Assembly: GCA_964247125.1 (NCBI GenBank)
Contig: CAXTSZ010000002.1
Location: 2,825-66,824, forward strand
Reading direction: 5' to 3'
Source of the DNA: an uncultured bacterium
Lineage (GTDB): Bacteria > Cyanobacteriota > Cyanobacteriia > Cyanobacteriales > Chamaesiphonaceae
DNA: 64,000 nucleotides
Shown: one piece after another, positions 34,126-53,007 of the stretch
How the letters are laid out: every line of letters begins with the position of its first letter
Numbering within the stretch: the first letter of the stretch is position 1
Position numbers and translations under genes: made by a program
The notes under the pieces: model-generated
The model's database searches: none
What the model was told of the DNA's origin: nothing
Seen by the model: the letters and a program-made list of their open reading frames with translations, nothing else

Positions 34126-34171
34126 GATATCAATAATATTTTATTTGTCTATGAGTATTCATAATAGAGTG

Positions 34172-35305: not shown

Positions 35306-35364
35306 TCCTTACGCATTTCTTTGTCGAAAATAATGCCAGCTAATAACATATGAAATACACTATT

Positions 35365-37059
35365 TTAATGGAAAGGTAGACAGTAATAGTGTTTATAATC
35401 GTATCCATTTATATGAGTGCTACTACTTTGAAATGAACAGTTATCCATCTCAATGTTGCCATCATAGTTAATTAGCCATAGAGAAGTACTAACTGTTGCC
35501 GCTTTTAGAGCATTCTGAAGTGTAGTACCACTGGCGGTGTGGTCAGATGATCGATCGAGAAAAAATCTGGGGGCTATTTTCTTATCGCTAGCACCCATAA
35601 ATTGCCATCCTAGTGCTATTAAGTTGCTAGTGTCATTAAGTGTTTTGTGGGTGACAACAATCAGAGTATCATTATTAGAGCTAGTCTTAATGACTTCAGC
35701 CATTATATCGGCACGGGATGCTTTAAGAAAACTCAAATTATTTATGACACAAATGGAACTTGTGAAAATAATAGAAATGAAAATGTATAGTACTACACTC
35801 TTTTTTATGAGGATGGTTTTTATTTTTACATAAGGGTATTCATCCTCAAAACTCTCGCAAATAAAATAGCTTAGCAGTATAATTAGAGCTGGAAAGAAAA
35901 CAAAATGGTATCTGTGTGCTATCAAAAAATTCTTTTTGAAAAAGCAACATATGGAAATCAAAGTAATGATGCTTGACGACAAATATATAGTCAAGAACTT
36001 AATAGGTAAAAAATGAAATTCATCTCTTTTGAAGTTCAAATTATTGCCACTTTGATTTATTAATAAAAACAAAAGAAATATCACAGACAACATAATTGTA
36101 TCAAACATGGCAATGGTAATGACACCATATGATTCTACCGGCAAAAGAAAAAACATGGTAATGCTAGAAACAATTGGCTGCAACAAAAGACTAGCAAGTG
36201 AATCTATTTTGTTGATGTCCGGTAGCCATGCCGTAAGGTCATTCCTTGTATCATTCAGAAAATATACTGGCAACCACGCTAATCCAGTAAGCAGATTTAC
36301 AAGAGTAACAATAAATACCCTAGTAAAAATTAATTTAAATTTGTGTTGAAGTGCTAGTAGCACTAAGGTAAATACTTCAGATATTAATACTACAATAAAA
36401 AAGTAATGACATGCTATCCCTAGAAAGTTCAATCCTACTAGTAACAAAATTGTGGCGATCGGCAAAGAATTAGAATAGATAACTTGTTCGGTAATATAGT
36501 AAAATATTGCCAATGACAATATGACAAGTACAATAGCAAGTGAGTAATGTCTGACATCTTGGGCAAGAGCTATCGAGTATGGCGATAATGTAATTAATAA
36601 GGAAGAGAAAAGCCATACTAATCTATTCTTCTTGAAAAGGCTTTTGGCAAGCCAATACATACTGGGAATCGAAATAATGCTCAAATAGACAGATAAAGAT
36701 CTGGCCGTAAATACTGAAACTAATTTATCAGACGTCTTGAATAAGAAGATCCAAGTATGAAGTAACATAAAATGAAGAGGTGGAACGAAATCCTCAAAAA
36801 AGCCATACTTAAGAACATCTATTAATCCATGGTGATCGTTTATTTCTAACGGCCTTAGTAGAGTTGTTAAGTCGATAATTTTATTGAGGGGGACATCTTT
36901 AAAGCTATTCCCTAGGCCATAAACGATACTAGCAATTTCATCTGTCCATATCACTTTGAGGGTCAGATTATCAAATCTGATTGCAGCACCGACGACAATC
37001 ATCAGAAAAATTGTAACGGAGTTCAAAAGCTGCTGATTAGCAACGAATTTCGTTCTCAT
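35365..37059 (-). CDS. GT-C fold glycosyltransferase (ArnT / family 39-like)
   Basis: 564 aa, polytopic. WTDEIASIVYG in the first periplasmic loop (the D-E motif of GT39/ArnT enzymes), and a C-terminal soluble domain. Confidence 0.65.
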   Translation of the reverse strand: MRTKFVANQQLLNSVTIFLMIVVGAAIRFDNLTLKVIWTDEIASIVYGLGNSFKDVPLNKIIDLTTLLRPLEINDHHGLIDVLKYGFFEDFVPPLHFMLLHTWIFLFKTSDKLVSVFTARSLSVYLSIISIPSMYWLAKSLFKKNRLVWLFSSLLITLSPYSIALAQDVRHYSLAIVLVILSLAIFYYITEQVIYSNSLPIATILLLVGLNFLGIACHYFFIVVLISEVFTLVLLALQHKFKLIFTRVFIVTLVNLLTGLAWLPVYFLNDTRNDLTAWLPDINKIDSLASLLLQPIVSSITMFFLLPVESYGVITIAMFDTIMLSVIFLLFLLINQSGNNLNFKRDEFHFLPIKFLTIYLSSSIITLISICCFFKKNFLIAHRYHFVFFPALIILLSYFICESFEDEYPYVKIKTILIKKSVVLYIFISIIFTSSICVINNLSFLKASRADIMAEVIKTSSNNDTLIVVTHKTLNDTSNLIALGWQFMGASDKKIAPRFFLDRSSDHTASGTTLQNALKAATVSTSLWLINYDGNIEMDNCSFQSSSTHINGYDYKHYYCLPFH

Positions 37060-37407
37060 GATTGTGTTTTGATATTAGATGAATTGCGAGAATACATGAT
37101 AATTATACCGAAAAAGCTTAGAAAGCGTTGAAAAAGTTAAGATGGCGGTCTTGAAAATCCTTAAGGTATAATACACCTGTAACTCCACGGAAATGAAGAG
37201 AGTGGCGATCTGAGAGTGAATCAATCTCAATCTAGATAATCAACTCTTGAAATACAAACTATCCTACCCACCAATGTGATATAACTCCTGAACGGGCTAA
37301 TGATTCGGAAATCTCATTTCCCAAAGTCCTTGTTGACAGTGTGCAAAATTCTTACGAGGAGAATTAATGCTTTGGAATCTCAATTACATAATTAGGTCTT
37401 AAATTCG

Positions 37408-38760
37408 ATGCAGTTACCAGATGGGCCAAAAAATAATCTTTTTCTTCGTTTACTTACAACGCTGGAATGGGTTTATCGCCCAGTTGAATTCTTAGATGAA
37501 TGTGCTGAACGTTATGGTGATCCCATTTGCTTTGGGGGTGAAAAATCTTCACCTGTTATCTATTTTAGCAATCCGGAAGATATTAAGCAGATCTTTACTG
37601 CTCCTCCAGACCTTTTTAGCCGGGGATCTAAAAATCATTTCTTAAAAACACTATTGGGACAAAACTCTTTATTTTTGCTCGATGGTAAAGCTCACAGCCG
37701 TCAGCGTCGCTTATTAATGCCGCCCTTTCATGGGGAGCGGATGCGTGTCTACGGTCAATATATTTGTGAGGCAACTGAACTGACAACCCAGCAATGGAGC
37801 TTAAACAAACCGTTTATTATTCGGGAATCGATCCAAGAGATTTCATTGAAAGTTATTCTACATTGCGTTTTTGGGTTAACTGAAGACTGTTGGCTGGAGG
37901 AGATTTTTCAGCTTCTCAAATCATTCATGGCCAAGATTGATACTCCTGCTTTTGCTAGTTTCATCTTTATTCGGATCCTGCAAAAGGATTTAGGTTCATG
38001 GAGTCCTTGGGGAGATTTTTTGGGTAAAGTGCAACAATTAGATGAACTAATCTATCGAATTATTACTGAACGACGGACTCAACTGCTTGAATCTCGATCG
38101 GACATCTTAAGTTTAATGATGATGGCTCAAGATGAGCAAGGTGAAGCCATGACGGATGTTGAACTCCGTGATGAATTGATTACGTTGTTATTTACTGGTA
38201 ATGATACAACTGTTTCGGCGGTAGTCTGGGCTTTATATTGGATCGATCGTCTCCCAGCAGTCCAAGAGCGATTATTACAAGAATTAGATTCGCTCTCTAA
38301 CTTTGACCCTAGTGATGTTGTACGGCTTCCGTATCTGACAGCAGTTTGTCAAGAAACTCTCCGGATTTATCCGGTGGCACTTTTTGCTACTGCCAGGATT
38401 TTGAAGGCTCCTTTCCAGGTAGGTAATTATTTGTTCAATCCCGGTACCATACTCGTTCCGTCAATTTATTTGACTCATCGGCGGGCAGATATATACCCAG
38501 AACCCACCCAGTTCCAGCCAGAACGTTTTCTAGAGAAACAGTATTCTCCTTATGAGTATCTTCCCTTCGGCGGTGGTAACCGCTCTTGTATCGGCATGGC
38601 TTTTGCAATGTTTCAAATGAAAGTTATACTGGCTAAAATTCTGTGTGATTTTAAGGTGTCCCGAACGAATCAAGATCCGCTTAAACCGTCCCGTCGTAGT
38701 ATCACCGTTGCCCCGCCCAGTAATATGCAAATGATTGTACAGAAGCGTTCTAACAAGTGA
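37408..38760 (+). CDS. Cytochrome P450 (CYP110-like)
   Basis: The LPDGPK N-terminus is typical of cyanobacterial CYP110. K-helix ETLRIYP (ExxR) and heme loop FGGGNRSCIGMAFA. The I-helix reads FTGNDTT. Confidence 0.9.
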   Translation: MQLPDGPKNNLFLRLLTTLEWVYRPVEFLDECAERYGDPICFGGEKSSPVIYFSNPEDIKQIFTAPPDLFSRGSKNHFLKTLLGQNSLFLLDGKAHSRQRRLLMPPFHGERMRVYGQYICEATELTTQQWSLNKPFIIRESIQEISLKVILHCVFGLTEDCWLEEIFQLLKSFMAKIDTPAFASFIFIRILQKDLGSWSPWGDFLGKVQQLDELIYRIITERRTQLLESRSDILSLMMMAQDEQGEAMTDVELRDELITLLFTGNDTTVSAVVWALYWIDRLPAVQERLLQELDSLSNFDPSDVVRLPYLTAVCQETLRIYPVALFATARILKAPFQVGNYLFNPGTILVPSIYLTHRRADIYPEPTQFQPERFLEKQYSPYEYLPFGGGNRSCIGMAFAMFQMKVILAKILCDFKVSRTNQDPLKPSRRSITVAPPSNMQMIVQKRSNK

Positions 38761-41136: not shown

Positions 41137-41417
41137 TTTTCAGCGCGGTTGGCGACTAGACCCCATAAGAAAATCGCAATAATGGCACCGACAACAGCCA
41201 CCCCAATACTACCCAAGCTTAGAATCTGGCCATTTTTGACTGGAGCCATCAACGTTTTGTATTTCACCAAGTTGTGGAGTGCGCCACCGATGAACGATCC
41301 GGCAATCCCTAAAGCCGCAGTAGCCAAGAAGCCACCACCTTGACGACCAGGGACAATTAGTTTGGCAATCCCACCAGCAATGATACCCAAGATAATCCAA
41401 GCAATGATTCCAAACAT
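41133..41417 (-). CDS. GlsB/YeaQ/YmgE family (transglycosylase-associated) membrane protein
   Basis: 94 aa. Gly-rich TM helices IIAWIILGIIAGGIAKLIVPGRQGGG. Confidence 0.8.
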   Translation of the reverse strand: MFGIIAWIILGIIAGGIAKLIVPGRQGGGFLATAALGIAGSFIGGALHNLVKYKTLMAPVKNGQILSLGSIGVAVVGAIIAIFLWGLVANRAEN

Positions 41418-41572
41418 GTGTTGTTCTCCATAATTATTAGATTCTCTTTAGAATAGCGATTACTTCGATCATTTTGCAGAACTGCGCAAACAATCATCAC
41501 AAAAACAGCGCGCAATTGCTGGAAATAGTTTTTCATTGGAGAATGTGCATAATGACCACATTTTTATAACCA

Positions 41573-43147
41573 ATGGCAATTTCGATCGACTTTGGCACTA
41601 GCAATACCGTAATTGCCCGCTGGAACCCTGCTACGCAGCAAGCCGAGACTATTAATTTGCCAGGATTATCGTTAGTTGCTGCACTTAATCCGCCCTTAAT
41701 CCCCAGTTTGGTCTATGTCAATAATGCCGCTACCAATGATTTCATGATTGGTCAGGCAGTGCGCGATCGAGGTTTAGACATCGCCAGCGATCAACGCTCT
41801 TTTGCTGGATTCAAACGGGGGATTGGGGTAAAAATTCAAGGATTTTTGCCAGAATTAGATGGCCTTCAAATTACCTTTGAGCAAGTTGGAGAATGGTTTT
41901 TGCAACAGGTATTGCGATCGATCGATCTAAACAATGAATCTTTGGTTGTAACGGTGCCTGTCGATAGTTTTGATACTTACCGCAGTTGGTTAGGCCGTGT
42001 TTGTACCCAGCTATCGATCGAACAAGTCTCACTGCTAGATGAATCTACCGCTGCGGCGCTGGGCTATGGTCTCGATAGTGGCTTGATTTTGGTGATCGAT
42101 GGCGGTGGCGGTACGATCGATTTATCCCTCGTTCAACTAGTAGCCACGCCCAGCCAGCAATTGGGTTTTCTGCTTAAATTCGGCAACAAAGTGCTGGATA
42201 AATCCGCCCAAAAACCGCAGTTAGCCAAAGTAATTGCGAAAGCTGGTCAAAATCTGGGGGGCACCGATATCGATCGCTGGATTGCCGAATATCTAGCTGC
42301 CCAGCAAGGCTTACGAGTCACCTCTTTGATCTTACGGCTGGCTGAAAAGCTCAAGATTCAGCTCTCTGCGCAAACCACGGCCACCGAAGTATTTTTTGAT
42401 GACCAAGCCTTTGAAACCTATGAATTTCAGCTTACCCGTACTGAACTAGACCAAATTTTGACCGACCGCGAGCTATTTACCCAGCTAGATGAACTGCTTA
42501 AGTCAATTAATCAGCAGGTTGAACAACAGGACATGAGTCTTAGTAGTGTTGATGCTGTTCTGCTCGTCGGTGGCACCACGCAAATGCCTGCTCTCCAATC
42601 TTGGATTGCCCAGCACTTTGAGCCAAGCAAAATCAAAAATTTTAAGCCCTTTGAAGCGATCGCCCACGGTGCCCTGCAAATTACCCAGGGTTTAGAAGTC
42701 ACTGACTTTTTGTATCATAGCTATGGTATTCGCTACTGGGATCGTCGCCAAAATCGTCATAACTGGCATCGGGTGATTAATGCGGGTCAACCCTACCCCA
42801 TGAATCAGCCCGTCGAAATCATGCTGGGCGCTTCTCAGGCCAATCAACCCAGTATTGAACTAATTATTGGCGAGCTGGGTACCGCAACTGGCAGCACCGA
42901 AATTTACTTTGATGGCGATCGGCTAATCACCAAAAACTTAGCTACCGGCGTGGCTGTCGTTCGACCGCTGAATGACAGCACTGCGGCCAAGAATATTGCC
43001 CAACTTGATCCGCTTGGGTTCCCAGGTAGCGATCGGATTCGAGTGAGGTTTACGGTCGATCGACAGCGCTGTTTGCGCCTCACGGTCTATGACTTACTCA
43101 CTAGTCAAAATCTTATAGAGGATATGGTGGTTGCGGAACTCAGCTAA
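41573..43147 (+). CDS. Hsp70-family (DnaK-like) protein, short form
   Basis: MAISIDFGTSNTVIARW (phosphate-1), DESTAAALGY, VIDGGGGTIDLS (phosphate-2), LLVGGTTQMP (adenosine). At 524 aa it lacks a canonical lid/EEVD tail. Confidence 0.85.
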   Translation: MAISIDFGTSNTVIARWNPATQQAETINLPGLSLVAALNPPLIPSLVYVNNAATNDFMIGQAVRDRGLDIASDQRSFAGFKRGIGVKIQGFLPELDGLQITFEQVGEWFLQQVLRSIDLNNESLVVTVPVDSFDTYRSWLGRVCTQLSIEQVSLLDESTAAALGYGLDSGLILVIDGGGGTIDLSLVQLVATPSQQLGFLLKFGNKVLDKSAQKPQLAKVIAKAGQNLGGTDIDRWIAEYLAAQQGLRVTSLILRLAEKLKIQLSAQTTATEVFFDDQAFETYEFQLTRTELDQILTDRELFTQLDELLKSINQQVEQQDMSLSSVDAVLLVGGTTQMPALQSWIAQHFEPSKIKNFKPFEAIAHGALQITQGLEVTDFLYHSYGIRYWDRRQNRHNWHRVINAGQPYPMNQPVEIMLGASQANQPSIELIIGELGTATGSTEIYFDGDRLITKNLATGVAVVRPLNDSTAAKNIAQLDPLGFPGSDRIRVRFTVDRQRCLRLTVYDLLTSQNLIEDMVVAELS

Positions 43148-43263
43148 ATCCATATCTACAGTTCATCAAGATCAGTTTCTAGATCCCGGAGTTTGGCGTT
43201 GATTGATAAATGGTTTACGATCGTCATGCTGTCCAAAACTTTCATCGGGTACTCTAGGCCGCC

Positions 43264-44643
43264 ATGTTCAGAAAAATAAGCTTTCAAAATTTTAAGTCCT
43301 GGAAAGACACGGGTGAAATAGAGCTAGCTCCGATCACAGGTTTTTTCGGTGCTAACAGTTCTGGGAAGTCATCGATTCTGCAATTTCTTTTGATGTTGAA
43401 GCAGACGATGGAATCAACCGATCGACAGCGAGTTTTGCATACTGGGGACGATCGTAGCTATGTAAATCTGGGCACCCTTCATGATATTGCCCATCAACAT
43501 ATTTTGCCGACTACAATTAGTTTTTCTCTGGAGTGGCTTAGTACAAAAAGAGCCATCGAAATACAGGTGAATAATCCTCCAGCTCCTTCTTCTTCGTTTG
43601 ATAGAATGAGGTTTTCATCGGAAATTTGGATAGATGAAAATGATATATTCATTGACAACTTCTACTATAGATTCTTTTCGGGATCACATCCATATAACAA
43701 TACGGATATGGAACTTAGAAAAAAGAGTCACACGAGAGAAATAGAATATGAATTAAAGTCTGACAGGTGGTCAGGGGCAACTAGAGCTAAACCTCGTGAG
43801 GCATATTGGAAAACTTTGCCATCTCCTATTCGGAACTATGGATTTCCAGAAGAAGCTAACAATCACTATACATTCTTATCTGATTTTGCGCTTGCTTATG
43901 AAAAAGCTTGGCAGTCAACTTATTACCTGGGGCCATTGAGAGAATATCCCAAGCGTACTTATTACTGGTCTGGCGAGAATCCTCAAGATGTCGGTCGCCG
44001 AGGTGAATTTGCTATTCCAGCCCTACTTTCTTCTCGCAAACTACCCCAAATCAAACATGGTGAACAGACAATTACAATCGAAGAGCGTATAGCCATTTGG
44101 TTAAAAGATTTAGGACTTATTGATAGCTTTTGTGTGCAGCCAATTGCTGAAGGTCGTCAGGAATACGAGGTTAAAGTTCGACGCTTTCCTCGGGCTTCTG
44201 ATGTTCTGATTACTGATGTGGGCTTTGGCGTTTCTCAAGTTTTACCTGTCTTAGTCCTTTGTTACTATGTACCAGAAGGATCGACCATTATTTTTGAGCA
44301 GCCAGAGATTCATCTGCATCCATCTGTGCAATCAGGACTAGCTGATGTGCTTATTGATGTAATGAAGACTCGGAATGTTCAAATCATTCTAGAAAGCCAT
44401 AGTGAACATTTACTTCATCGCCTCCAGCGTCGCATTGCCGAAGAAAAAGATGGTCTAACCAATCAAGATGTTAAACTTTATTTCTGCAATTCTGCCCAAG
44501 ATGGCAGCTCTAACCTGACAGCACTGCAAATTGACTCTTTTGGAAACATCGCCAATTGGCCAGAGAATTTCTTTGGCGATGAGATGGGCGATTTATTTGC
44601 CATGACAGAAGCTGCGATGAAACGTCAACTGGTTAATGATTAG
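43264..44643 (+). CDS. ABC/OLD-type AAA_21-like ATPase with DUF3696-like C-terminal tail
   Basis: ISFQNFKSW opening, Walker A GANSSGKSS, YLGPLRE, signature-like DVGFGVSQVLP, Walker B plus D-loop IIFEQPEIHLHP, H-loop ILESHSEHLL, and the tail NWPENFFGDE. Confidence 0.8.
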   Translation: MFRKISFQNFKSWKDTGEIELAPITGFFGANSSGKSSILQFLLMLKQTMESTDRQRVLHTGDDRSYVNLGTLHDIAHQHILPTTISFSLEWLSTKRAIEIQVNNPPAPSSSFDRMRFSSEIWIDENDIFIDNFYYRFFSGSHPYNNTDMELRKKSHTREIEYELKSDRWSGATRAKPREAYWKTLPSPIRNYGFPEEANNHYTFLSDFALAYEKAWQSTYYLGPLREYPKRTYYWSGENPQDVGRRGEFAIPALLSSRKLPQIKHGEQTITIEERIAIWLKDLGLIDSFCVQPIAEGRQEYEVKVRRFPRASDVLITDVGFGVSQVLPVLVLCYYVPEGSTIIFEQPEIHLHPSVQSGLADVLIDVMKTRNVQIILESHSEHLLHRLQRRIAEEKDGLTNQDVKLYFCNSAQDGSSNLTALQIDSFGNIANWPENFFGDEMGDLFAMTEAAMKRQLVND

Positions 44644-45133
44644 GGCTATGAAAGCAGTTATCGATACTAATGTTTTAATCGCGGCTAATGGGCGAGATTG
44701 CACACAAGTGACTATTAACTGTCAACAGCGATCGATGCAATATTTGCGAGATATTCAACAGACTGGAATAATTGCGATCGATGATCGATGGCTAATCTTG
44801 AAGGAGTATCAAAACAAAGTTAATCCATCGGGACAACCTGGTATCGGCGATGCTTTCTTAAAATGGGTCTTGACTAACCAAGCAAATTCTGAACGTTGCA
44901 ATCGCATAAAGATACATCCCATAGAGGGTAAAGGCTTTAAAGAATTCCCCGATGATCCTAGCTTGGAGAAGTTCGATCGATCAGATCGGAAATTCGTCGC
45001 AGTCGCTCTTGCGGCTGCCGATCGCCCGCCGATCATCAATGCTGTCGATTCTGACTGGATGGAGTTTTATGAGTCTTTAACAGAGTGTGGAGTCAAAATC
45101 GAGTTTCTCTGTCCTGATGTTGTAGCTCCATAG
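44636..45133 (+). CDS. PIN-like domain protein (predicted nuclease)
   Basis: KAVIDTNVLIAANG is a PIN first strand with an Asp. Further acidic positions lie in AIDDRW, FDRSDRKFVAVALAA and NAVDSDW. The ATG at 44636 overlaps the ATPase stop by 8 nt; an alternative ATG lies at 44648. Confidence 0.6.
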   Translation: MIRAMKAVIDTNVLIAANGRDCTQVTINCQQRSMQYLRDIQQTGIIAIDDRWLILKEYQNKVNPSGQPGIGDAFLKWVLTNQANSERCNRIKIHPIEGKGFKEFPDDPSLEKFDRSDRKFVAVALAAADRPPIINAVDSDWMEFYESLTECGVKIEFLCPDVVAP

Positions 45134-45146
45134 CCTAGAGGGAAAA

Positions 45147-46373
45147 GTGTCAAGATCTAAAAAGCGAACTGTATTAACAAGCAATGGGCAAGTGTCAGCA
45201 GCCTACCTCCATATCCCCTTCTGTCGCCGACGCTGCTACTACTGCGACTTCCCTGTTTACGTAGTAGGCGACAAACGCAGTGGTGAAAACTCTCAAATGG
45301 TGCAAACCTATGTCGAAGTGATCTGTCAGGAAATCACCGCCAGCCATCACTACGGACAACCCCTCAACACAGTATTTTTCGGCGGTGGCACCCCCTCCCT
45401 TCTCACCCCCTCCCAACTAGCCAAAATTCTCCAGACCTTAGAGAAGTCGATCGGCATTTCCCCCAGTGCCGAAATCTCGATGGAAATTGATCCCGGCACT
45501 TTTACGCTCGATCAACTCCAAGCTTACCTAGCCGCCGGCATCAACCGGATCAGTATGGGCGTTCAAGCTTGGCAAGATCCTTTGCTACAAGTCTGTGGCC
45601 GTTCCCATCACCTTGCCGATATCGAAAAATCGATCGAACTCATCCACCGATCTGCCATCAAAAACTGGAGCCTGGATCTCATCTCCGGCTTACCCGACCA
45701 AACTATGACCATGTGGTTAGAATCATTGGGGAGATCGATCGCCGCCCACCCCACCCACATCTCCGTTTATGATCTCATCGTCGAAGCCCAAACCCCTTTT
45801 GCCAAACAATATCAGCCCAGCGAGTATCCCCTGCCTAGCGATACCATCACCGCCGATATGTATCGCACCGCCCAACAAATTTTAACAACCGCCGGCTACG
45901 AACATTACGAAATCTCTAACTACGCGCAACCAGGGTGCGCTTGCCAGCACAATCAGGTCTACTGGCAAAACCAACCTTACTACGCTTTTGGGATGGGAGC
46001 CGCTAGCTATCTCGATGGCACCCGCTTTACACGTCCCCGTTATACCCAAGATTATTTTCAATGGGTCGCCGCTGGCTGTTGCTACGAACCCGAGATCCTA
46101 GGCCAGACCGAACAATTTTTAGATACCATGATGCTCGGTCTGCGGTTAGCCAGCGGCTTGGAAATTCAGCCATTAATCGCTGCCTTTGGTGGGGATCTGT
46201 GGCAAGCGGCCTGGTCAAAACTCCAACGCTACACTCCCAAATGGGTAATTGTAGACAATCCAGCGCCTGCTTCGGAATTTGTTACCCCCCAGCGGGGCTA
46301 CATCCGACTCCGTGACCCCGAAGGTTTTTTGTATTCTAATACCATCCTCGCCAGCGTATTTGAGCTGGAATAG
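45147..46373 (+). CDS. hemW: Radical SAM heme chaperone HemW (HemN-like)
   Basis: AAYLHIPFCRRRCYYCDF (CxxxCxxC), FFGGGTPS, and a HemN_C-like tail. GTG start 13 nt after the PIN gene stop. Confidence 0.85.
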   Translation: MSRSKKRTVLTSNGQVSAAYLHIPFCRRRCYYCDFPVYVVGDKRSGENSQMVQTYVEVICQEITASHHYGQPLNTVFFGGGTPSLLTPSQLAKILQTLEKSIGISPSAEISMEIDPGTFTLDQLQAYLAAGINRISMGVQAWQDPLLQVCGRSHHLADIEKSIELIHRSAIKNWSLDLISGLPDQTMTMWLESLGRSIAAHPTHISVYDLIVEAQTPFAKQYQPSEYPLPSDTITADMYRTAQQILTTAGYEHYEISNYAQPGCACQHNQVYWQNQPYYAFGMGAASYLDGTRFTRPRYTQDYFQWVAAGCCYEPEILGQTEQFLDTMMLGLRLASGLEIQPLIAAFGGDLWQAAWSKLQRYTPKWVIVDNPAPASEFVTPQRGYIRLRDPEGFLYSNTILASVFELE

Positions 46374-46374
46374 C

Positions 46375-47604
46375 TTACGGATTGATATGATTATCGGTCA
46401 CCCGCCAACTGAGCTTGACATTGATCCAGAAGTTCCAAAGCGTGACGCAGCCGATCGCCATCAAATTGCTGATGTACTGATTGTGAAAGATAAAATTAAA
46501 CAGCACATTGAGAATCAGAGCCTTTAGGACTAACCCCATCAAGCAAATGAGGTTGAACTTGATAAATCGCCGCATCATTTGGCGGCGACCAGGTTGTTTC
46601 GTCACCAAATCATGAAAAGTCCAGCGATCATTCCAAATAAAGTTGTTGATAATAGCCACTTCGCCCGCCAATATTGCACTGCGCGTCAAGGGCAAATGTA
46701 ACATGTGTGTATCTGTCAGCAGATAAAGAATTAGCATATCGATCGCCAACCCACTCAAACCCACTGCCACAAACCGCAAAAACCGACCACTCTTGGCTAG
46801 CCGCAGGCGTAGTAAGTGCCGAATATATTCTACATACTGCTGGGCAGTCACCTTACTTTCGCCACTTTGGCGCTCCTGAAACTCATAACCCACCTCCACT
46901 ATTTTACTCACCTGTCCCCGCCCAACTGCTTCGATCAAAATCTTGTAGCCCAACGGATGGAGGGTGAGATTAGCGATCGCCCTGCGCCGCAGCAAAAAAT
47001 AACCACTCATGGGGTCACTGATGCGACCAATAACTTCTGGCAAAACCACCAAGCCCAAGATCTGTGCCCCTCGTGACAAACAGCGCCGCAACAAACTCCA
47101 TTCGCTTACCCCACCACCGTCGGCATTACGACTAGCCACCGCCAAATCAGCACCTTGCTCTTGCAATGCCTGCCACAGTTGACCCAATACCTCCGGCGGA
47201 TGTTGCAAGTCGGCATCAATCACCCCCAAGACCTGTCCTTGGGCAGCTTGCCAACCCCGAATTACGGCGGTCGCCAAACCCCGCTCATTAGTCCGCCGAA
47301 TTACATGGAGTTGAGGATATTGCTGAATCAACTCAGCGGCTACATCCCAAGTTCGATCCGGGCTATCATCATCCACCACAATTAGTTCATATGCACCGGG
47401 TAAAATGCTATCTAACTTGCTAGCCAATAGCTCAATTATCTGCACAATATTTTGCCGCTCTTGATAAGTGGGTAAAATTAGTGATAACTGAATCTCACTA
47501 TTGCTCAGAGCCGGGATTTGTAGCACTCCCTGCGGATTGGAGAGCAAGTTAACACAAGATGACATAAGCAGCAGCCCCAGACAAGACAATTTCTTCGACC
47601 GCAA
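46375..47604 (-). CDS. Family 2 glycosyltransferase fused to a GtrA-like membrane domain
   Basis: LSLILPTYQERQNI, VVDDDSPDRT and VIDADLQHPP (GT2/DPM1-like), then FLRFVAVGLSGLAIDMLILYLL (GtrA-like). The tracked start is TTG; the ATG at 47565 is an alternative. Confidence 0.8.
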   Translation of the reverse strand: MRSKKLSCLGLLLMSSCVNLLSNPQGVLQIPALSNSEIQLSLILPTYQERQNIVQIIELLASKLDSILPGAYELIVVDDDSPDRTWDVAAELIQQYPQLHVIRRTNERGLATAVIRGWQAAQGQVLGVIDADLQHPPEVLGQLWQALQEQGADLAVASRNADGGGVSEWSLLRRCLSRGAQILGLVVLPEVIGRISDPMSGYFLLRRRAIANLTLHPLGYKILIEAVGRGQVSKIVEVGYEFQERQSGESKVTAQQYVEYIRHLLRLRLAKSGRFLRFVAVGLSGLAIDMLILYLLTDTHMLHLPLTRSAILAGEVAIINNFIWNDRWTFHDLVTKQPGRRQMMRRFIKFNLICLMGLVLKALILNVLFNFIFHNQYISNLMAIGCVTLWNFWINVKLSWRVTDNHINP

Positions 47605-47699
47605 TTATACGTTGTCCTGTTCCGTCTAATTTGGTGGGTGAGGATTAATAATGGCCAAGAATGGTAGATTTAAGGCAGTATTTAACCCCTTAATTTTGC

Positions 47700-48773
47700 A
47701 TGTGGCGATCGATCAACGCCAATAAGCTTCTGGTCTGGCTATTGCTTAGTGCTACTGCCGCCGCCAATATTTGGTTGTTTTCTCAAGTCTTTCGGTATTT
47801 CGAACATTTGATTACCATTTTGGTGATCTCGGCAATCGTGGCTTTTTTACTCAACTATCCGGTACGGTTTCTCGATCGAGCGGGGATTAGTCGATCGCAG
47901 GCAGTGTTTGTAGTACTAATTATCTCCTTAGTATTGGTGGTAATACTGGGCGTAACCGTTGTGCCCAGCGTGATCGAACAGGTTGCTGGTCTCTCCGAGC
48001 AAGTACCGAAATGGATTCAAGGCAGCAACGAAAATATTAATAACCTAGAGCAACTGGCCCAGAAACGCGGCCTCCGCCTGGATTTTAATGTGCTGCGCAC
48101 CCAGGTCAACTCCAATCTCCAGAAGCAAATTGAAGGATTTGCCAGTCAGGTAGTAACGCTCGCAGTTGGCACCGCCTCGGGCTTACTCGATTTCTTTTTA
48201 ATCATCGTTTTGAGTGTTTACATGCTGATCGATGGCGACAAGATGTGGGATGGCATTATCAAAATGCTGCCACCAGCTTGGGGGAGTTCGCTGGGTGAAG
48301 CTCTGCGCATGAACTTCCAGCGCTTTTTTATCAGTCAGTTTTTGCTAGGGGGCTTTATGGCTCTCGCCTTGACCATTATTTTCTTTTTCTTAGATGTGCC
48401 TTTTGGTCTGTCTTTTGCCATTTTTATTGGTCTTTCGCAGTTGATTCCGTTTGTGGGCGCCACTTTTGGGATTGGGCTAGTCACTCTGCTGGTGCTTCTC
48501 AAAAGCTTGTCTTTGGCACTGTGGGTGGGCGGCGTATCGTTTGTTTTACAACAGATCAAAGACAATTTTTTAGCTCCCAAACTAATGGGCGATTTTATTG
48601 GTCTCAATCCGGTCATGATCTTGCTGGCTGTGTTGATTGGCTTGCAAATCGCGGGCTTCTTGGGTGTGTTAGTGGGAGTGCCGATCGCTGGTACGATCAA
48701 AAGCACGATCGACATGATTCGCCAGTCCCAAAAGTCAGAAGCACTAGCTACTGAATCTGGCGAAAATCGCTAG
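47700..48773 (+). CDS. AI-2E family transporter (PerM-like)
   Basis: 357 aa, ~8 TM helices. Conserved LIPFVGATFG and GVLVGVPIAG blocks. Confidence 0.8.
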   Translation: MWRSINANKLLVWLLLSATAAANIWLFSQVFRYFEHLITILVISAIVAFLLNYPVRFLDRAGISRSQAVFVVLIISLVLVVILGVTVVPSVIEQVAGLSEQVPKWIQGSNENINNLEQLAQKRGLRLDFNVLRTQVNSNLQKQIEGFASQVVTLAVGTASGLLDFFLIIVLSVYMLIDGDKMWDGIIKMLPPAWGSSLGEALRMNFQRFFISQFLLGGFMALALTIIFFFLDVPFGLSFAIFIGLSQLIPFVGATFGIGLVTLLVLLKSLSLALWVGGVSFVLQQIKDNFLAPKLMGDFIGLNPVMILLAVLIGLQIAGFLGVLVGVPIAGTIKSTIDMIRQSQKSEALATESGENR

Positions 48774-48824
48774 TAAAATATTTCCTCGGCATCTACCTGA
48801 GCATCATTGCTCATTTTTACCTGA

Positions 48825-49703
48825 ATGGTTCTACTACCAGAAAAAGAGCAGCTCACCGCTCCGGCGGTCGATCCCCATACCCTCACGCAGCTGGGGATCG
48901 ATCTACTAATTGACCTGGCGCAGCGCGGTGAAATCAACCCCTGGGATGTGCAGGTCATTGATGTTATTGACAATCATCTCAGTCGCATTCCCCAGCAAAT
49001 AGCGGCGATGGTGGGGGGTGATAAGCAGGCTAATTTATCCCTCTCGGGTCAAGCCTTTTTGTGGGCAGCGATGCTGGTACTACTCAAAGCCAACAGCTTA
49101 GAAGAACAGCAGCCGATCGAGAGCGAAGCCGAATTTCTTGAAGAAGATCCCGAACAGCTAGCTCTATTAGAACTAGGAGCCTTGCCCTCTCATCTGGAAC
49201 GACGCATTCGGCGGCGGTTGACAGCTAGCCCGATGCAGCGGCGGCCAGTTACTCTGCATGATTTAATTCATCAGTTGCGCTCGATCGCCGCCAAAATGAG
49301 CGATCAGCCAACTCGCCCCCGCAAAGCCAGACGGGTCAATCTGTCCGCCACCAAAGCAGCCCAGGCGATCGCGGACTTAGCCCATGCCGAAAACCTCACC
49401 GAAACAGCCGCCCAGCTCTCCGAATTCTTGCAGGCCACTGAACTAGACTGGATTGATCTAGAAGAACTGATTCGCCTGTGGGTCAAAGCCATGGAGAACG
49501 ATCGCGGTGAAATTACCACCCACGATCGCGTCGGCGTGTTTTGGGCATTGCTGCTGCTCTCGGCGCAATCCAAAGTCGAACTCACGCAAGAAGAATTCTA
49601 TCGAGAAATTAAGGTGCGTTCCATCTTGGGCGAATCCCTCCCCATCATCGATCTCAACGCCACCATTGGTCTCTCTTCGCCCCCGGCGCTCGATGACAAT
49701 TAA
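48825..49703 (+). CDS. scpA: Segregation and condensation protein A
   Basis: LLIDLAQRGEINPWDVQVIDVID N-terminal kleisin motif and a C-terminal winged helix. Confidence 0.75.
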   Translation: MVLLPEKEQLTAPAVDPHTLTQLGIDLLIDLAQRGEINPWDVQVIDVIDNHLSRIPQQIAAMVGGDKQANLSLSGQAFLWAAMLVLLKANSLEEQQPIESEAEFLEEDPEQLALLELGALPSHLERRIRRRLTASPMQRRPVTLHDLIHQLRSIAAKMSDQPTRPRKARRVNLSATKAAQAIADLAHAENLTETAAQLSEFLQATELDWIDLEELIRLWVKAMENDRGEITTHDRVGVFWALLLLSAQSKVELTQEEFYREIKVRSILGESLPIIDLNATIGLSSPPALDDN

Positions 49704-49724
49704 TTCAACTACAGGAGCCGTCAT

Positions 49725-50867
49725 ATGTTAGTCATCGGACTCATGAGTGGTACCTCCGTCGATGGCATCGACACTGCTCTAGTAGACATTCAGGGCACCA
49801 CCACCGATTTAAAAGTTGCCTTGATCGCTGGTGATACCTATCCCTATCCCCCGGCCTTACGTCAGCAGATCCTCGACGTTTGTGCTGGAGCTAAACTGAG
49901 CATGGCCGAGCTGGCCGAGCTAGATGATGCGATCGCCCATTGCTTTGCCACGGCGGCTCAGTATATTCAAACCGACCAGCCCGCTGAACTCATTGGCTCC
50001 CATGGCCAAACTGTTTTCCACCGCCCCGCTCAACCCCGCCAGCTGGGCTACAGCCAACAATTGGGTCGGGGAGCAGTGATTGCCCAAAAAACTGGATTGA
50101 GGGCGATCGACAATTTTCGCGCTGCGGATATTGCGGCTGGTGGCCAAGGCGCACCATTGGTACCTAAAATAGATGCTTATTTGTTGAGCGATCAGCATTC
50201 CCACCTGTGTATCCAAAATATTGGTGGCATCGGTAACTGTACTTATTTACCCCCCCGCAGCCAAGCCAACTGGGAAGAGCAGGTCACTGGCTGGGACACG
50301 GGGCCAGGGAATAGCCTGATCGACCTGGCGGTGCAGGAACTAAGTCAGGGTCAAAAAACCTACGATCAAGACGGTGATTGGGCTGCTCAAGGCACCATTA
50401 ACCGTGATTTAGTAAACCACTGGCTCCAGCAGGAATATTTTCGCACAGCTCCGCCCAAATCGACTGGGCGAGAGCTATTTGGCCGTGAGTATCTCCAGGC
50501 TTGTCAACAGGATGCCAGTCAGCTGAAGGCCGCCGACTTCCTGGCCACCATTACTGACCTCACAGCGGCCAGCATTGCCAACAGCTACCAGCACTTTTTA
50601 CCCCGGCTGCCCGACCGCGTACTACTCTGTGGTGGTGGGGCACACAATCGTTTTTTGATGCAATGTTTACAAGATCGGTTGCCAACGGCTCAAGTGACAA
50701 CGACGGCGGCGGCAGGATTAAATAGTGATTTTAAAGAAGCGATCGCCTTTGCCGTGTTAGCTTATTGGCGTTGGCACAAGATTCCAGGCAATCTACCGCG
50801 CGTCACTGGCGCGAGCGCTGCCGTACTATTGGGCGATATCCACGGATTCCAACCACAGCGGTTGTGA
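49725..50867 (+). CDS. anmK: Anhydro-N-acetylmuramic acid kinase
   Basis: [34 protein letters not shown]. Confidence 0.9.
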
Positions 50868-51370: not shown

Positions 51371-51498
51371 GCGATAGACCAAGGAGTATTTTGCTTGTAT
51401 ATTGTAAAGAGAGTTGACCGCCAGAATGGTTTTCATTGCCCCCTTGATTACCAACGATCATCATCGAGAGCCACCACGCTTGCGGAGGCATTGTGGCG

Positions 51499-53007
51499 AT
51501 GAGTAGCAATAAAGACGAAAACTACGGTCGGCTGATCTTGCAACGCTACCAGCTGCTTGAAATAGCTGGCAAAGGATCGATGGGTCAGGTGTATCTGGCT
51601 AAAGATATGTTGCTGGGGGGCGTGAAAGTTGCCGTTAAATTTTTATCCAAGGCCACCATCACTCAGAAAGTTCGCGATCGGTTCATGCAAGAGGCCACCA
51701 TTAGTGCCTTACTGGGTGAAAACAGCATTCACATTGTCAAGGTGCGCGACTACGGTCTCGATGAGACCGAGATGCCTTTCTATGTGATGGAATTTTTACA
51801 TGGCGATAGCCTCAAGGACATTATCCACAAACGGCCGATGCCCCTGCCCCGTTTTTTCAATGTGCTGCGCCAAATTTGTCTGGGTTTAGATTGCGCCCAT
51901 GAAGGCATTGAAATAGATGGGAATCTCTGTCAGGTGATTCACCGTGATATTAAGCCCAGCAATATTATTGTCACCCAAAACCCCACCCTGGGCGACTTTG
52001 TAAAGGTTCTAGACTTTGGCATTGCGCTGCTCCAGTCCGATGACTCTCCCACGGGTTTTATGGGCACCCCGGCCTACTGCTCACCGGAGCAAATGGAAGG
52101 TAAAGTCCTCGATAATCGATCGGACATTTACAGTCTGGGCATCATGATGTTCCAAATGCTGACAGGTGAATTGCCCCTACGACCAGCTACCAGTTCTTTT
52201 GAGGGCTGGTTCAATGTCCATCACAAGGTCGCTCCCAAAACTTTTAAAGAAGCCTGTCCCAAAATCGACATCCCCAAAGAAATAGAGACTTTGGTCATGA
52301 ACTGCATGGCCAAATCCGTTCAGGATCGGCCTCAGAATGTCGAAGAAATCTTAGGGGTCATTGAACATTTAGAGTCTACATACATCTCTGGCACTACCAC
52401 TTCCGGCAGCAAGCGTCCCACCAAATCCACCAGCAAAATCAGTAGTCTGGATGAGCTATGTCTAAAATCTACTTGGCCAGCCGATAAACCCCGCGCTGAA
52501 ATTGTTTTTCCCCGCCTAATGGAGCATGACTCCGAAGTGGGAGCGACTCTTTGGATTATGTTGTCCCGGGCAGAAATCAGCTACTACAAAAAGCAACCGC
52601 CCCACTGTCAGTTTCTCTTTTTAGCAGCCCCACATCCAATGCTGCTTTGGATTGCAGCGCTTTATCATGACGAACAGCAACATCGGTTGCTGCCTTCCTA
52701 CTTAGACTTAAAAAAACAGACCAGCGAACGAACGCTGAGTATTCTAGCCAAGACTCAAAGCTATCGCCTCTTATTCTTTGGTCTAGAAGGAGATAATACT
52801 TGTATTAGTATTATTAAAGGCAAAATCCCTGGTACTAAAGTCTTGAAATTAGAAGAATGGCTATGGGAGAGTCAGGCAACACCTGGTTCTAATGAACAAA
52901 AAATTAGTAGAGGATACCTCAAAGAAGAATTTGAAGCTGTGAAGCCCAAACTAATTAGCAGCCTGAGCCGTAAGCAGCGTAAGGATCAGGTCTTCCTGAC
53001 TCGTTAG
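51499..53007 (+). CDS. Ser/Thr protein kinase with uncharacterised C-terminal domain
   Basis: GKGSMGQVY, VAVKF, HRDIKPSN, DFG, and a GTPAYCSPEQ APE-like motif. About 200 aa C-terminal are of unknown type. The ATG at 51499 is preferred to the GTG at 51493. Confidence 0.85.
   Translation: MSSNKDENYGRLILQRYQLLEIAGKGSMGQVYLAKDMLLGGVKVAVKFLSKATITQKVRDRFMQEATISALLGENSIHIVKVRDYGLDETEMPFYVMEFLHGDSLKDIIHKRPMPLPRFFNVLRQICLGLDCAHEGIEIDGNLCQVIHRDIKPSNIIVTQNPTLGDFVKVLDFGIALLQSDDSPTGFMGTPAYCSPEQMEGKVLDNRSDIYSLGIMMFQMLTGELPLRPATSSFEGWFNVHHKVAPKTFKEACPKIDIPKEIETLVMNCMAKSVQDRPQNVEEILGVIEHLESTYISGTTTSGSKRPTKSTSKISSLDELCLKSTWPADKPRAEIVFPRLMEHDSEVGATLWIMLSRAEISYYKKQPPHCQFLFLAAPHPMLLWIAALYHDEQQHRLLPSYLDLKKQTSERTLSILAKTQSYRLLFFGLEGDNTCISIIKGKIPGTKVLKLEEWLWESQATPGSNEQKISRGYLKEEFEAVKPKLISSLSRKQRKDQVFLTR

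What the first reader, a model, noticed from the sequence alone, without database searches (positions are those of the whole stretch)
43264..45133. ABC/OLD-type ATPase plus overlapping PIN-like nuclease in a low-GC islet: candidate uncharacterised two-gene defence or abortive-infection module
**ATPase (seen in sequence).** The 459-aa protein has a complete ABC-type ATPase motif set: Walker A GANSSGKSS, YLGPLRE, DVGFGVSQVLP, IIFEQPEIHLHP and ESHSEH. It also has an NWPENFFGDE tail that I associate with DUF3696.

**Second gene (seen in sequence).** Its stop overlaps the start of a 165-aa protein that opens with the PIN strand VIDTNVLIAANG. That protein carries further acidic positions in AIDDRW, FDRSDRKF and NAVDSDW.

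**Composition (seen in sequence).** Hand counts on single 60-nt lines inside the cassette gave 16/60 and 21/60 G+C. The flanking Hsp70-like and hemW genes gave 32/60 and 30/60. The cassette sits between two conserved housekeeping-type genes.

**Context (established knowledge).** AAA_15/AAA_21 ATPases paired with a small nuclease are the architecture of Septu (PtuA+HNH), PARIS (AriA+TOPRIM AriB) and Gabija/OLD.

**Inference.** This is the same logic with a PIN effector. I do not recognise that combination as a named system.
Basis: partly seen in the sequence, partly recalled or inferred. Interest (0 to 1): 0.8.

Follow-up and report, generated by a model that had tools for sequence, protein, structure and literature searches.

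The report
Known HEC-03 phage-defence gene pair
The two overlapping genes are real, but they belong to HEC-03, an ATPase-plus-PIN-nuclease anti-phage system that was already named and tested in 2024, so this is an ordinary extra copy in a cyanobacterium-like genome, not a new system.

Summary
Window 43264-44643 (+) encodes a 459-aa ABC/OLD-type ATPase with a DUF3696 tail. Window 44636-45133 (+) encodes an overlapping 165-aa PIN-like protein.

The claim that the pair is unnamed does not hold. PADLOC models for HEC-03 match both proteins end to end (6e-146 and 1e-40). HEC-03 (ABC ATPase + PIN) was described by Payne et al. (bioRxiv 10.1101/2024.01.29.577857). It protected E. coli from phages, needed both genes, and was toxic when induced. 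The window proteins are 45% and 40% identical to that tested Pseudomonas cichorii pair.

- **Synteny:** 79 of 80 loci from many phyla keep the ATPase directly upstream of the PIN gene, translationally coupled. About 10 of the 80 sit inside Hma systems, the context in which HEC-03 was discovered.
- **PIN fold:** a confident model's top structural matches are all PIN domains, though at weak scores.
- **ATPase motifs:** they are non-canonical (invariant Walker B E-Q, Arg for the Q-loop Gln, GxG signature). Menshen's NsnB, the nearest other named family, has similar substitutions.
- **Low-GC islet:** it is only a modest dip.

Verdict: already known, low interest. The mechanism (trigger, PIN target) remains open.

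The parts
43264..44643 (+). HEC-03 ABC ATPase (459 aa; AAA_15/AAA_21 core plus C-terminal DUF3696 tail). The paper calls it HEC-03A; the PADLOC-DB v2 model that matches it is named HEC-03B.
   Evidence: ORF. Pfam AAA_15, AAA_21 and DUF3696 above threshold. PADLOC HEC-03B 6.1e-146, residues 1-456 against model positions 1-453 of 458. 45% identity, E 3e-110, to the tested P. cichorii WP_025259138.1. AF2 model pLDDT 80; nearest solved structures are PtuA, GajA, SMC, Rad50 and OLD.
43348..43371 (+). Walker A / P-loop, G29-ANSSGK-S36
   Evidence: Read from the sequence. G29, N31, S32, G34 and K35 are invariant in alignment A3.
44296..44322 (+). Non-canonical Walker B region E345-Q346-P-E348-IHLHP. 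Gln occupies the position of the canonical catalytic Glu.
   Evidence: Aligned to OLD 6p74 'IIEEPEMYLHP' and an ABC transporter 'LADEPTSALDP'. EQPEIHLHP is invariant in 32 relatives and is present in the tested P. cichorii protein.
44458..44598 (+). DUF3696 C-terminal tail (residues 399-445), the likely docking element for the PIN-like partner
   Evidence: Pfam DUF3696 5.3e-12, above the cut-off. The docking role is inferred from AlphaFold 3 models of the homologous Menshen NsnB-NsnC pair in PMC12065111. It was not tested here.
44636..45133 (+). HEC-03 PIN-like effector (165 aa from ATG 44636, or 161 aa from ATG 44648). The paper calls it HEC-03B; the PADLOC-DB v2 model that matches it is named HEC-03A.
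   Evidence: PADLOC HEC-03A 1.1e-40, residues 5-161 against model positions 1-153 of 159. 40% identity, E 2e-35, to the tested WP_025259137.1. AF2 pLDDT 92.7. The top 12 PDB fold matches are all PIN domains, best TM 0.54/0.62 to M. tuberculosis VapC 7vwo_A. PIN_3 scores below threshold in 32 of 54 relatives. D10, D49, D72, E103, D114 and D138 are invariant.
44636..44643 (+). 8-nt overlap (ATGATTAG) between the ATPase stop and the first possible PIN start: a translational-coupling junction
   Evidence: Sequence. Across 75 loci the ATPase stop lies a median of 17 nt before the beta1 Asp/Glu codon. 71 of 73 loci have a candidate start within -20 to +15 nt of the stop.

Best explanation
This is a stand-alone chromosomal copy of the HEC-03 anti-phage defence system, a co-translated two-gene module.

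**Shown.** Both proteins are full-length members of the HEC-03 families. They are homologous to the pair that was shown to protect E. coli against phages. The two genes are conserved as a tightly coupled unit across many phyla and on conjugative plasmids.

**Inferred mechanism.**
1. The ATPase oligomerises and holds the PIN-like nuclease in an inactive complex through its C-terminal DUF3696 tails. This mirrors the prediction for the homologous NsnB-NsnC core of Menshen, and what cryo-EM structures of Septu (PtuA-PtuB) and PARIS (AriA-AriB) show in outline.
2. A phage-derived cue is sensed by the variable inserts of the ATPase. This changes its nucleotide state or conformation.
3. The catalytic Glu position is an invariant Gln. 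The nucleotide cycle is therefore more likely a slow ATP-binding switch than fast hydrolysis.
4. The PIN domain is then released or activated. It keeps a conserved acidic set (D10, E57, D114, D138). It cleaves RNA, probably tRNA, rRNA or mRNA as VapC-type PINs do, and this stops phage production, possibly at the cost of host growth.

The confidence of 0.9 is for the identification as HEC-03. It is about 0.7 that the locus is a functional defence module in its host, and about 0.4 for the clamp-and-release RNase mechanism.
For: **Family identity.** PADLOC HEC-03B 6.1e-146 and HEC-03A 1.1e-40, both full length. 45% and 40% identity to the tested P. cichorii pair.

**Published phenotype.** HEC-03 lowered the efficiency of plating of at least two phages by orders of magnitude. 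Both genes were required. The construct was toxic with IPTG.

**Unit behaviour.** 79 of 80 loci from Cyanobacteria, Chloroflexota, Bacteroidota, Planctomycetota, Acidobacteriota, Proteobacteria and others have the ATPase directly upstream on the same strand. Coupling at the stop/start junction is conserved. The two proteins co-diverge (Mantel r 0.62; 0 of 2000 permutations reach it).

**Defence context.** About 10 of 80 loci are embedded HmaA-HmaB-[pair]-HmaC. Copies occur on conjugative plasmids beside AbiEii and Hok/Gef genes. A related lineage has the pair upstream of hemW with a HigB-family toxin gene close by.

**Effector.** The top fold matches are PIN domains, and the acidic residues are invariant.

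**Regulator model.** NsnB is the second-best PADLOC match (3.8e-64, full length). It shares the DUF3696 tail and similar motif substitutions. In published AlphaFold 3 models its tails clamp NsnC's PIN-like domain.
Against: - No experiment exists for this locus or for any cyanobacterial copy. The tested homologue is only 40-45% identical.
- The ATPase-PIN complex, the trigger and the PIN substrate are all inferred. The HEC-03 preprint says the sensing mechanism is unknown.
- PIN assignment is weak by sequence. Pfam scores below threshold. The profile finds no PIN among PDB sequences. hhalign to a VapC sequence recalled from memory aligned only 12 N-terminal residues at 2.4% probability. Foldseek E-values are only about 1e-2.
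- The correspondence of E57, D114 and D138 to the canonical PIN catalytic residues is read from predicted secondary-structure positions, not from a verified superposition.
- The window copy is not in an Hma system. No recognised defence system is confirmed beside it.
Confidence: 0.9

Rival explanations
1. The pair is primarily a toxin-antitoxin or addiction module. A VapC-like PIN toxin is neutralised by the ATPase acting as an unconventional antitoxin. The module stabilises the DNA that carries it, and any phage effect is secondary.
For: - HEC-03 was toxic when induced in E. coli.
- Copies lie among TA genes: AbiEii and Hok/Gef on an Aeromonas conjugative plasmid, and a HigB-family toxin gene close by in L162-L164.
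- In the sister contig L161 a single deletion removed the ATPase together with the PIN beta1 strand and its Asp. That is what one would expect if losing the ATPase alone were lethal.
Against: - Deleting either gene abolished phage defence in the published test.
- The family was found by its embedding inside Hma defence systems, and about 10 of 80 loci here are embedded in that way.
- The ATPase is unrelated to VapB antitoxins.
- This reading is not exclusive of abortive-infection defence.
Confidence: 0.12
2. It is a reduced or partial Menshen (NsnABC) system, not HEC-03.
For: The ATPase matches the PADLOC NsnB model over its full length (3.8e-64). It has the DUF3696 tail and motif substitutions similar to NsnB's, and its partner has a PIN-like fold like the N-terminal domain of NsnC.
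Against: - The HEC-03B model scores far higher (485 against 216 bits).
- No DUF262/NsnA gene is adjacent in the window. None recurs among the 391 neighbour ORFs of the 80 loci.
- The small protein is a single domain without NsnC's C-terminal effector. It keeps conserved acidic residues that NsnC inPIN domains lack.
- It matches no PADLOC model other than HEC-03A at E <= 1.
Confidence: 0.03
3. It is a housekeeping SMC/RecF-like ATPase with an RNA-processing PIN partner, belonging to the conserved Hsp70-like/hemW neighbourhood.
For: The cassette sits between housekeeping-type genes, only 13 nt upstream of the hemW start, with no terminator-like site in between. The GC dip is not an outlier for the window.
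Against: - None of 80 hemW loci from more distant relatives (51-58% identity) has the pair or the Hsp70-like gene nearby.
- Close relatives carry the pair at different sites or have deleted it.
- The distribution across phyla is patchy, and copies occur on conjugative plasmids.
- The family has a demonstrated anti-phage phenotype.
Confidence: 0.03

Closest known systems
HEC-03 (Hma-embedded candidate 3; Payne et al., bioRxiv 10.1101/2024.01.29.577857; PADLOC-DB v2 models PDLC04147 and PDLC04148)
   Same: Both proteins match the family models end to end. They are 40-45% identical to the tested P. cichorii ATCC 10857 pair. They share the gene order ATPase then PIN, overlapping genes, the EQPE Walker B variant and the DUF3696 tail.
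   Different: The window copy stands alone between an Hsp70-like gene and hemW and is not embedded in an Hma system. The host looks cyanobacterial, not a pseudomonad. The beta1 acidic residue is Asp here and Glu in the tested protein. The A/B names are swapped between the paper and the PADLOC-DB v2 models.
Menshen NsnB-NsnC core (Millman 2022 system; analysed in PMC12065111)
   Same: NsnB is an ABC ATPase with a DUF3696 tail and comparable motif changes: Walker B D-E becomes E-N there and E-Q here, an Arg replaces the Q-loop Gln, and GxG replaces SGG. Its partner has a PIN-like fold. NsnB is the second-best PADLOC match, 3.8e-64.
   Different: There is no NsnA (ParB-DUF262) sensor gene. The PIN partner here is a single domain with conserved acidic residues, whereas NsnC has an inactive PIN plus a separate C-terminal toxin domain.
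Septu (PtuA-PtuB), PARIS (AriA-AriB), Gabija (GajA-GajB), retron Ec78/Eco7/Eco8 and OLD nucleases
   Same: All have an OLD/SMC-like ABC ATPase that regulates a nuclease. These are the top structural matches of the ATPase model (E 1e-9 to 1e-11). PADLOC AriA, GajA, Old and PtuA models give partial hits.
   Different: The effector is PIN-like, not HNH or Toprim/DUF4435. Query-normalised TM-scores are only 0.36-0.47 and sequence identity 10-14%. Sequence hits cover only the P-loop and Walker B segments.
VapC-type PIN toxins of VapBC toxin-antitoxin systems
   Same: The fold matches include M. tuberculosis VapC (7vwo_A, 6a7v_C) and Shigella VapC (5ecw_A). There is an N-terminal hydrophobic-D-T-N strand. 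Payne et al. also liken the HEC-03 PIN to VapC.
   Different: There is no VapB-type antitoxin; the partner is a 459-aa ATPase. A roughly 50-residue conserved insert (about residues 62-113, including the invariant GQPGxGD..F..W motif) is absent from the shorter VapC chains. Sequence similarity is not significant.

Membership tests
HEC-03 | ABC ATPase that matches the HEC-03 ATPase profile over its full length | tested here: met
   PADLOC PDLC04148: 6.1e-146, 485 bits, residues 1-456 against model positions 1-453 of 458.
HEC-03 | Small PIN-domain partner that matches the HEC-03 small-protein profile | tested here: met
   PADLOC PDLC04147: 1.1e-40, residues 5-161 against model positions 1-153 of 159.
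HEC-03 | The two genes are adjacent on the same strand, ATPase first | tested here: met
   8-nt overlap in the window. Same arrangement in 79 of 80 loci, with conserved coupling.
HEC-03 | Homology to the experimentally tested representative (P. cichorii ATCC 10857) | tested here: met
   ATPase 45% identity, E 3e-110, over the 399 residues held in the supplement. PIN 40% identity, E 2e-35.
HEC-03 | Embedded inside an Hma (HmaA/B/C) system. This is the context of discovery, not a requirement of the two-gene system. | tested here: not met
   The flanks are an Hsp70-like gene and hemW. The largest ORF in the window is 755 aa, whereas the Hma models are about 940-1180 positions long. About 10 of 80 related loci are embedded.
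HEC-03 | Confers phage resistance that needs both genes | not testable with these tools
   Shown only for the P. cichorii pair in E. coli.
PIN domain superfamily | PIN-type alpha/beta/alpha fold | tested here: met
   AF2 pLDDT 92.7. The top 12 Foldseek PDB hits are all PIN domains, with probability up to 0.99 and best TM 0.54/0.62, but E-values of only about 1e-2.
PIN domain superfamily | Conserved acidic catalytic residues (D-E-D-D type) | tested here: inconclusive
   D10, D114 and D138 are invariant and E57 nearly so. D10 aligns to VapC D7 in a 12-residue hhalign match at 2.4% probability. The other three are assigned only from predicted secondary-structure positions.
PIN domain superfamily | Pfam PIN-clan model above its gathering score | tested here: not met
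   PIN_3 scores 15.6 bits against a cut-off of 27. It is below threshold in 32 of 54 relatives, best E 6e-4.
Menshen (NsnABC) | NsnA gene with a ParB-DUF262 domain next to the ATPase | tested here: not met
   No such gene is next to the pair in the window. None recurs among the neighbours of the 80 loci.
Menshen (NsnABC) | NsnB-type ABC ATPase with a DUF3696 tail | tested here: met
   PADLOC NsnB 3.8e-64, full length. DUF3696 5.3e-12.
Menshen (NsnABC) | NsnC with an inactive PIN N-domain plus a C-terminal effector domain | tested here: not met
   The partner is a 165-aa single domain with conserved acidic residues. No PADLOC NsnC hit at E <= 1.
PARIS / Septu / Gabija | Effector is a Toprim/DUF4435 protein (AriB), an HNH protein (PtuB) or a Toprim fusion with a GajB helicase | tested here: not met
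   The partner is PIN-like. The ATPase has no Toprim domain.
VapBC toxin-antitoxin | Small VapB-type antitoxin gene immediately upstream of the PIN toxin | tested here: not met
   The upstream gene is the 459-aa ABC ATPase.

The most novel reading that the evidence does not exclude
HEC-03 may be the minimal, sensor-less sibling of the Menshen NsnB-NsnC core. The same DUF3696-tailed ABC ATPase carries a naturally hydrolysis-impaired active site: an invariant Gln replaces the catalytic Glu. It would work as an ATP-binding clamp. Here it would hold a PIN domain that is still catalytically active and is itself the toxin. In Menshen the PIN has decayed into an adaptor for other toxins. Neither the HEC-03 preprint nor the Menshen paper, in the passages I read, states this link. 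An RNA ligase gene fused onto the operon in Aeromonas plasmids would fit an RNA-cleaving, repairable mode of action.
Probability: 0.35. Interest if true: 0.4.

Novelty: already known. Interest (0 to 1): 0.18.

Why it matters
For genome annotation, this locus should simply be labelled HEC-03. Public records call the ATPase only 'DUF3696 domain-containing protein' and its partner 'hypothetical protein'.

The finding does not open a new class of defence. Three smaller points have some value:
- HEC-03 is widespread in cyanobacteria and many other phyla, mostly outside Hma systems.
- Its ATPase shares an unusual motif set and the DUF3696 tail with Menshen's NsnB. This suggests a concrete, testable model for how the PIN effector is held and released.
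- A sister lineage shows a one-step loss of the system.

The trigger and the RNA target of HEC-03 remain unknown.

Tried and rejected
- **Source contig.** Looking up the exact ATPase (P0121) returned 'not on record'. I first suspected the small gene was uncalled in the source assembly because its best hit was 85% identical. That was wrong: the exact protein is in the collection as P0241 on the same 104-kb contig.
- **Empty-site test.** A metagenome scan with hemW found only relatives at 51-58% identity. None has the Hsp70-like gene or the pair nearby. No clean empty site was obtained.
- **Sequence-level PIN evidence.** phmmer and the A1 profile against PDB sequences gave nothing or a spurious de novo TIM-barrel repeat hit. 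hhalign of A1 against a VapC sequence recalled from memory aligned only 12 residues at 2.4% probability.
- **NCBIfam.** It gave only sub-threshold partial hits (MAD3 N-terminus, PtuA, Rad50, RecF).
- **Promoter and terminator scan of 42900-45400.** It found fewer sites than shuffled controls and is uninformative.
- **Conserved third gene.** Clustering 391 neighbour ORFs found only the Hma genes, in a subset of loci.
- **RNA ligase.** The ligase seen on an Aeromonas plasmid is absent from the 80 loci and from the window.
- **Phage records.** They hold only partial relatives (48% coverage, 36% identity) of the ATPase.
Full report
**1. The observation**

The two ORFs are real and lie at the stated coordinates. 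The 459-aa ORF is at 43264-44643 (+) and the 165-aa ORF is at 44636-45133 (+). The junction reads ...AATGATTAG..., so the first possible ATG of the small gene overlaps the TAG stop of the ATPase by 8 nt. Most homologues begin at the equivalent of Met5. The true start may therefore be the ATG at 44648, 4 nt after the stop. In either case the genes are translationally coupled.

Pfam places AAA_15 (1.7e-25), AAA_21 (7.5e-20) and DUF3696 (5.3e-12) on the large protein, all above their gathering scores. The small protein reaches only PIN_3 at E 0.03 (15.6 bits against a cut-off of 27).

The composition claim is only partly borne out:
- The cassette is 41.7% GC (GC3 0.34 and 0.40). The immediate neighbours are 48-52% GC (GC3 0.47-0.57).
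- The window mean is 46.6%, with sd 4.5% for same-size windows.
- 13% of such windows are as low or lower.
- A much deeper trough (32% GC) lies at about 30-37 kb.

**2. What it is**

PADLOC-DB models gave full-length matches to a named system:
- HEC-03B matches the ATPase at 6.1e-146 (residues 1-456 against model positions 1-453 of 458).
- HEC-03A matches the small protein at 1.1e-40 (residues 5-161 against model positions 1-153 of 159).

HEC-03 is one of nine 'Hma-embedded candidates' in Payne et al., bioRxiv 10.1101/2024.01.29.577857. The paper describes it as an ABC ATPase associated with a PIN-domain protein. A representative was cloned into E. coli MG1655 deltaRM. The published results were:
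- It reduced the plating of at least two phages by orders of magnitude.
- Both genes were required (their Fig. S3).
- The strain could not be induced with IPTG because of toxicity.
- The PIN protein was likened to VapC ribonucleases.
- The sensing mechanism was left open.

The paper calls the ATPase HEC-03A and the PIN protein HEC-03B. The PADLOC-DB v2 models carry the opposite letters.

The tested pair is from Pseudomonas cichorii ATCC 10857 (WP_025259138.1 and WP_025259137.1; supplementary table 2). The window ATPase is 45% identical to it (E 3e-110, over the 399 residues held). The window PIN-like protein is 40% identical (E 2e-35).

**3. Independent checks of the pair**

The small protein has about 1,400 relatives in the protein collection, many of them cyanobacterial. 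A scan of one genome per species found at least 510 loci. The phyla include Cyanobacteria, Chloroflexota, Bacteroidota, Planctomycetota, Acidobacteriota, Proteobacteria, Thermotogales, Latescibacterota and others.

I examined the best 80 loci:
- In 79 of them a full or contig-truncated ATPase homologue lies directly upstream on the same strand.
- The ATPase stop lies a median of 17 nt (IQR 11-18.5) before the codon of the beta1 Asp/Glu.
- 71 of 73 loci have a candidate PIN start within -20 to +15 nt of the stop.
- The pairwise distances of the two proteins are correlated (Mantel r 0.62; 0 of 2000 permutations reach it).

The pair is therefore inherited as a unit.

I clustered 391 neighbouring ORFs and found no conserved third gene. 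In about 10 loci the pair lies between HmaA/HmaB and HmaC (PADLOC E = 0 for all three). These loci include cyanobacterial copies 62-70% identical to the window. This is the embedding by which HEC-03 was discovered. The window copy is not embedded: its flanks are an Hsp70-family gene and hemW, and the largest ORF in the window is 755 aa.

Full-length relatives at about 45% identity also sit on conjugative plasmids of Aeromonas, Azotobacter and Rhodococcus. There they are annotated only as 'DUF3696 domain-containing protein'. One such locus lies beside AbiEii and Hok/Gef genes. Its 177-aa partner is 43% identical to the window's PIN-like protein.

**4. The PIN-like effector**

An AlphaFold2 model built from 54 relatives is confident (pLDDT 92.7, pTM 0.89). 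Its twelve best matches among solved structures are all PIN domains:
- A. fulgidus AF0591
- human SMG6/EST1A
- M. tuberculosis VapC (7vwo_A, TM 0.54/0.62; 6a7v_C)
- Shigella VapC
- a bacterial PRORP

The E-values are only about 1e-2. Sequence methods see little:
- Nothing among PDB sequences.
- PIN_3 below threshold in 32 of 54 relatives, with no competing family.
- A 12-residue hhalign match of the N-terminal 'DTN' strand to a VapC sequence that I supplied from memory.

D10, D49, D72, E103, D114 and D138 are invariant. E57, D117 and D140 are nearly so. In the model, D10 follows beta1, E57 lies in the helix after beta2, D114 caps the helix after the central strands, and D138 follows the next strand. 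These are the places where the canonical PIN acidic residues sit. This mapping is my inference from predicted secondary structure, not a verified superposition.

A conserved insert of about 50 residues (roughly 62-113, with the invariant GQPGxGD..F..W motif) distinguishes the family from the shorter VapC chains.

**5. The ATPase**

The AlphaFold2 model (pLDDT 80, pTM 0.84) matches ABC ATPase heads that regulate nucleases or DNA transactions. These include retron I-A/Ec78/Eco7 PtuA-type ATPases, Gabija GajA, Septu PtuA, retron Eco8, Thermus OLD, and SMC and Rad50 heads. E-values are 1e-9 to 1e-11, query-normalised TM-scores are 0.36-0.47, and identity is 10-14%. The Septu/PARIS/Gabija analogy is therefore sound, but there is no close solved relative.

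The motif set is not canonical:
- Aligned to OLD ('IIEEPEMYLHP') and to an ABC transporter ('LADEPTSALDP'), the window reads 'IFEQPEIHLHP'. A Gln therefore occupies the catalytic-Glu position.
- The Arg of LGPLR sits where the Q-loop Gln is expected.
- The signature motif is GFG.

E345-Q346-P-E348, R226 and G320-F-G322 are invariant in 32 relatives. EQPE is also present in the tested P. cichorii protein.

The second-best PADLOC match is NsnB of Menshen (3.8e-64, full length). A 2025 analysis of Menshen (PMC12065111) describes the following:
- NsnB is an ABC ATPase with a DUF3696 tail. Its Walker B D-E is replaced by E-N, its Q-loop Gln by Arg, and its SGG by GxG.
- AlphaFold 3 predicts an NsnB tetramer whose paired DUF3696 tails clamp the PIN-like N-domain of NsnC.
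- The PIN-like domains of NsnC have lost their catalytic residues and carry separate C-terminal toxins.

HEC-03 therefore looks like the same ATPase-plus-PIN core, without the NsnA sensor and with a PIN that still has its acidic residues.

**6. Most likely mechanism**

Shown: family membership, the two-gene unit, and (for a homologue) anti-phage activity that needs both genes, plus toxicity on induction.

Inferred:
1. The ATPase oligomer sequesters the PIN protein through its DUF3696 tails.
2. A phage cue sensed by the variable inserts alters the nucleotide state of the ATPase. Given the Gln at the catalytic position, this is more likely an ATP-binding switch than rapid hydrolysis.
3. The PIN nuclease is released or activated and cleaves RNA. 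This stops infection, possibly through growth arrest.

My confidence is about 0.9-0.95 that this is HEC-03. It is about 0.7 that the locus is a functional defence module in its host. It is about 0.4 for the clamp-and-release RNase mechanism.

**7. Local history**

Contig L161 is about 90% identical to the window on both sides. It lacks window 43260-44677, which is the whole ATPase gene plus the first 14 codons of the PIN gene, including the VIDTN strand. Short microhomology lies at the junction. The system was therefore present at this site in a common ancestor and was lost in one step in a sister lineage.

Other relatives show different arrangements:
- In L162-L164 the pair (82% and 72% identical) is again upstream of hemW. 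Four extra genes lie in between, including a HigB-family toxin gene, and the upstream neighbour is a leucyl-tRNA synthetase.
- In L165-L167 (75% identical) the pair is at an unrelated site.
- Eighty hemW loci from more distant relatives have no pair nearby.

This is the behaviour of a mobile accessory cassette. It is not a recent insertion into this particular genome.

**8. Verdict**

The defence interpretation is right in kind. The novelty claim is wrong. The locus is a member of an already named, catalogued and experimentally supported system, so interest is low. The residual value lies in the link between HEC-03 and Menshen and in the unusual catalytic-site Gln. Together these give a testable model for a system whose mechanism is still unknown.

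Noticed in passing
L161:1-7334 compared with window 41264-50000: A sister contig about 90% identical in DNA has a single 1.4-kb deletion of window 43260-44677. The deletion removes the whole ATPase gene and the first 14 codons of the PIN gene, including the catalytic-strand Asp. It leaves a 175-aa remnant ORF (P0002). Short microhomology (ATCG..TACT) lies at the junction.
   Followed up: yes
L162:8614-13742 (also L163 and L164): In a related lineage the HEC-03 pair is also upstream of hemW. Two hypothetical genes and a HigB-toxin gene with a 133-aa partner lie between them, and the upstream neighbour is a leucyl-tRNA synthetase. The region upstream of hemW looks like a small variable spot for toxin and defence genes.
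   Followed up: partly
L168:7001-9629 (Aeromonas veronii plasmid NZ_AP022291.1): On conjugative Aeromonas plasmids the HEC-03 pair is followed 4 nt later by an 'RNA ligase family protein' gene and sits beside AbiEii and Hok/Gef toxin genes. An RNA ligase next to a putative RNase hints at an RNA target. The ligase is absent from the window and from the 80 genome loci.
   Followed up: partly
window 29228-38760: This is the deepest low-GC trough of the window (down to 32% GC near 34.2-36.1 kb). It holds a HerA/DUF87-type ATPase (29228-30970, minus strand; partial PADLOC HerA hits around 1e-29), a small methyltransferase, a PIG-V-like mannosyltransferase, an acyltransferase_3 and a cytochrome P450. 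It is probably a horizontally acquired envelope or modification island. No complete defence system was recognised.
   Followed up: partly
window 51493-53007: A 504-aa Ser/Thr protein kinase matches PADLOC PD-T4-6 models (4.6e-62) and mad6 through its kinase domain only. Orthologues occupy the same position in L161 and L162. It is more likely a generic cyanobacterial kinase than a defence gene.
   Followed up: no
PADLOC-DB v2 models PDLC04147 and PDLC04148: The letter names are swapped between sources. The preprint calls the ATPase HEC-03A and the PIN protein HEC-03B. The PADLOC-DB v2 model named HEC-03B (458 positions) matches the ATPase, and the model named HEC-03A (159 positions) matches the PIN protein.
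   Followed up: yes
window 45134-45147: Only 13 nt separate the PIN stop from the GTG start of hemW, and no terminator-like site lies in between. The cassette may therefore be co-transcribed with hemW.
   Followed up: partly
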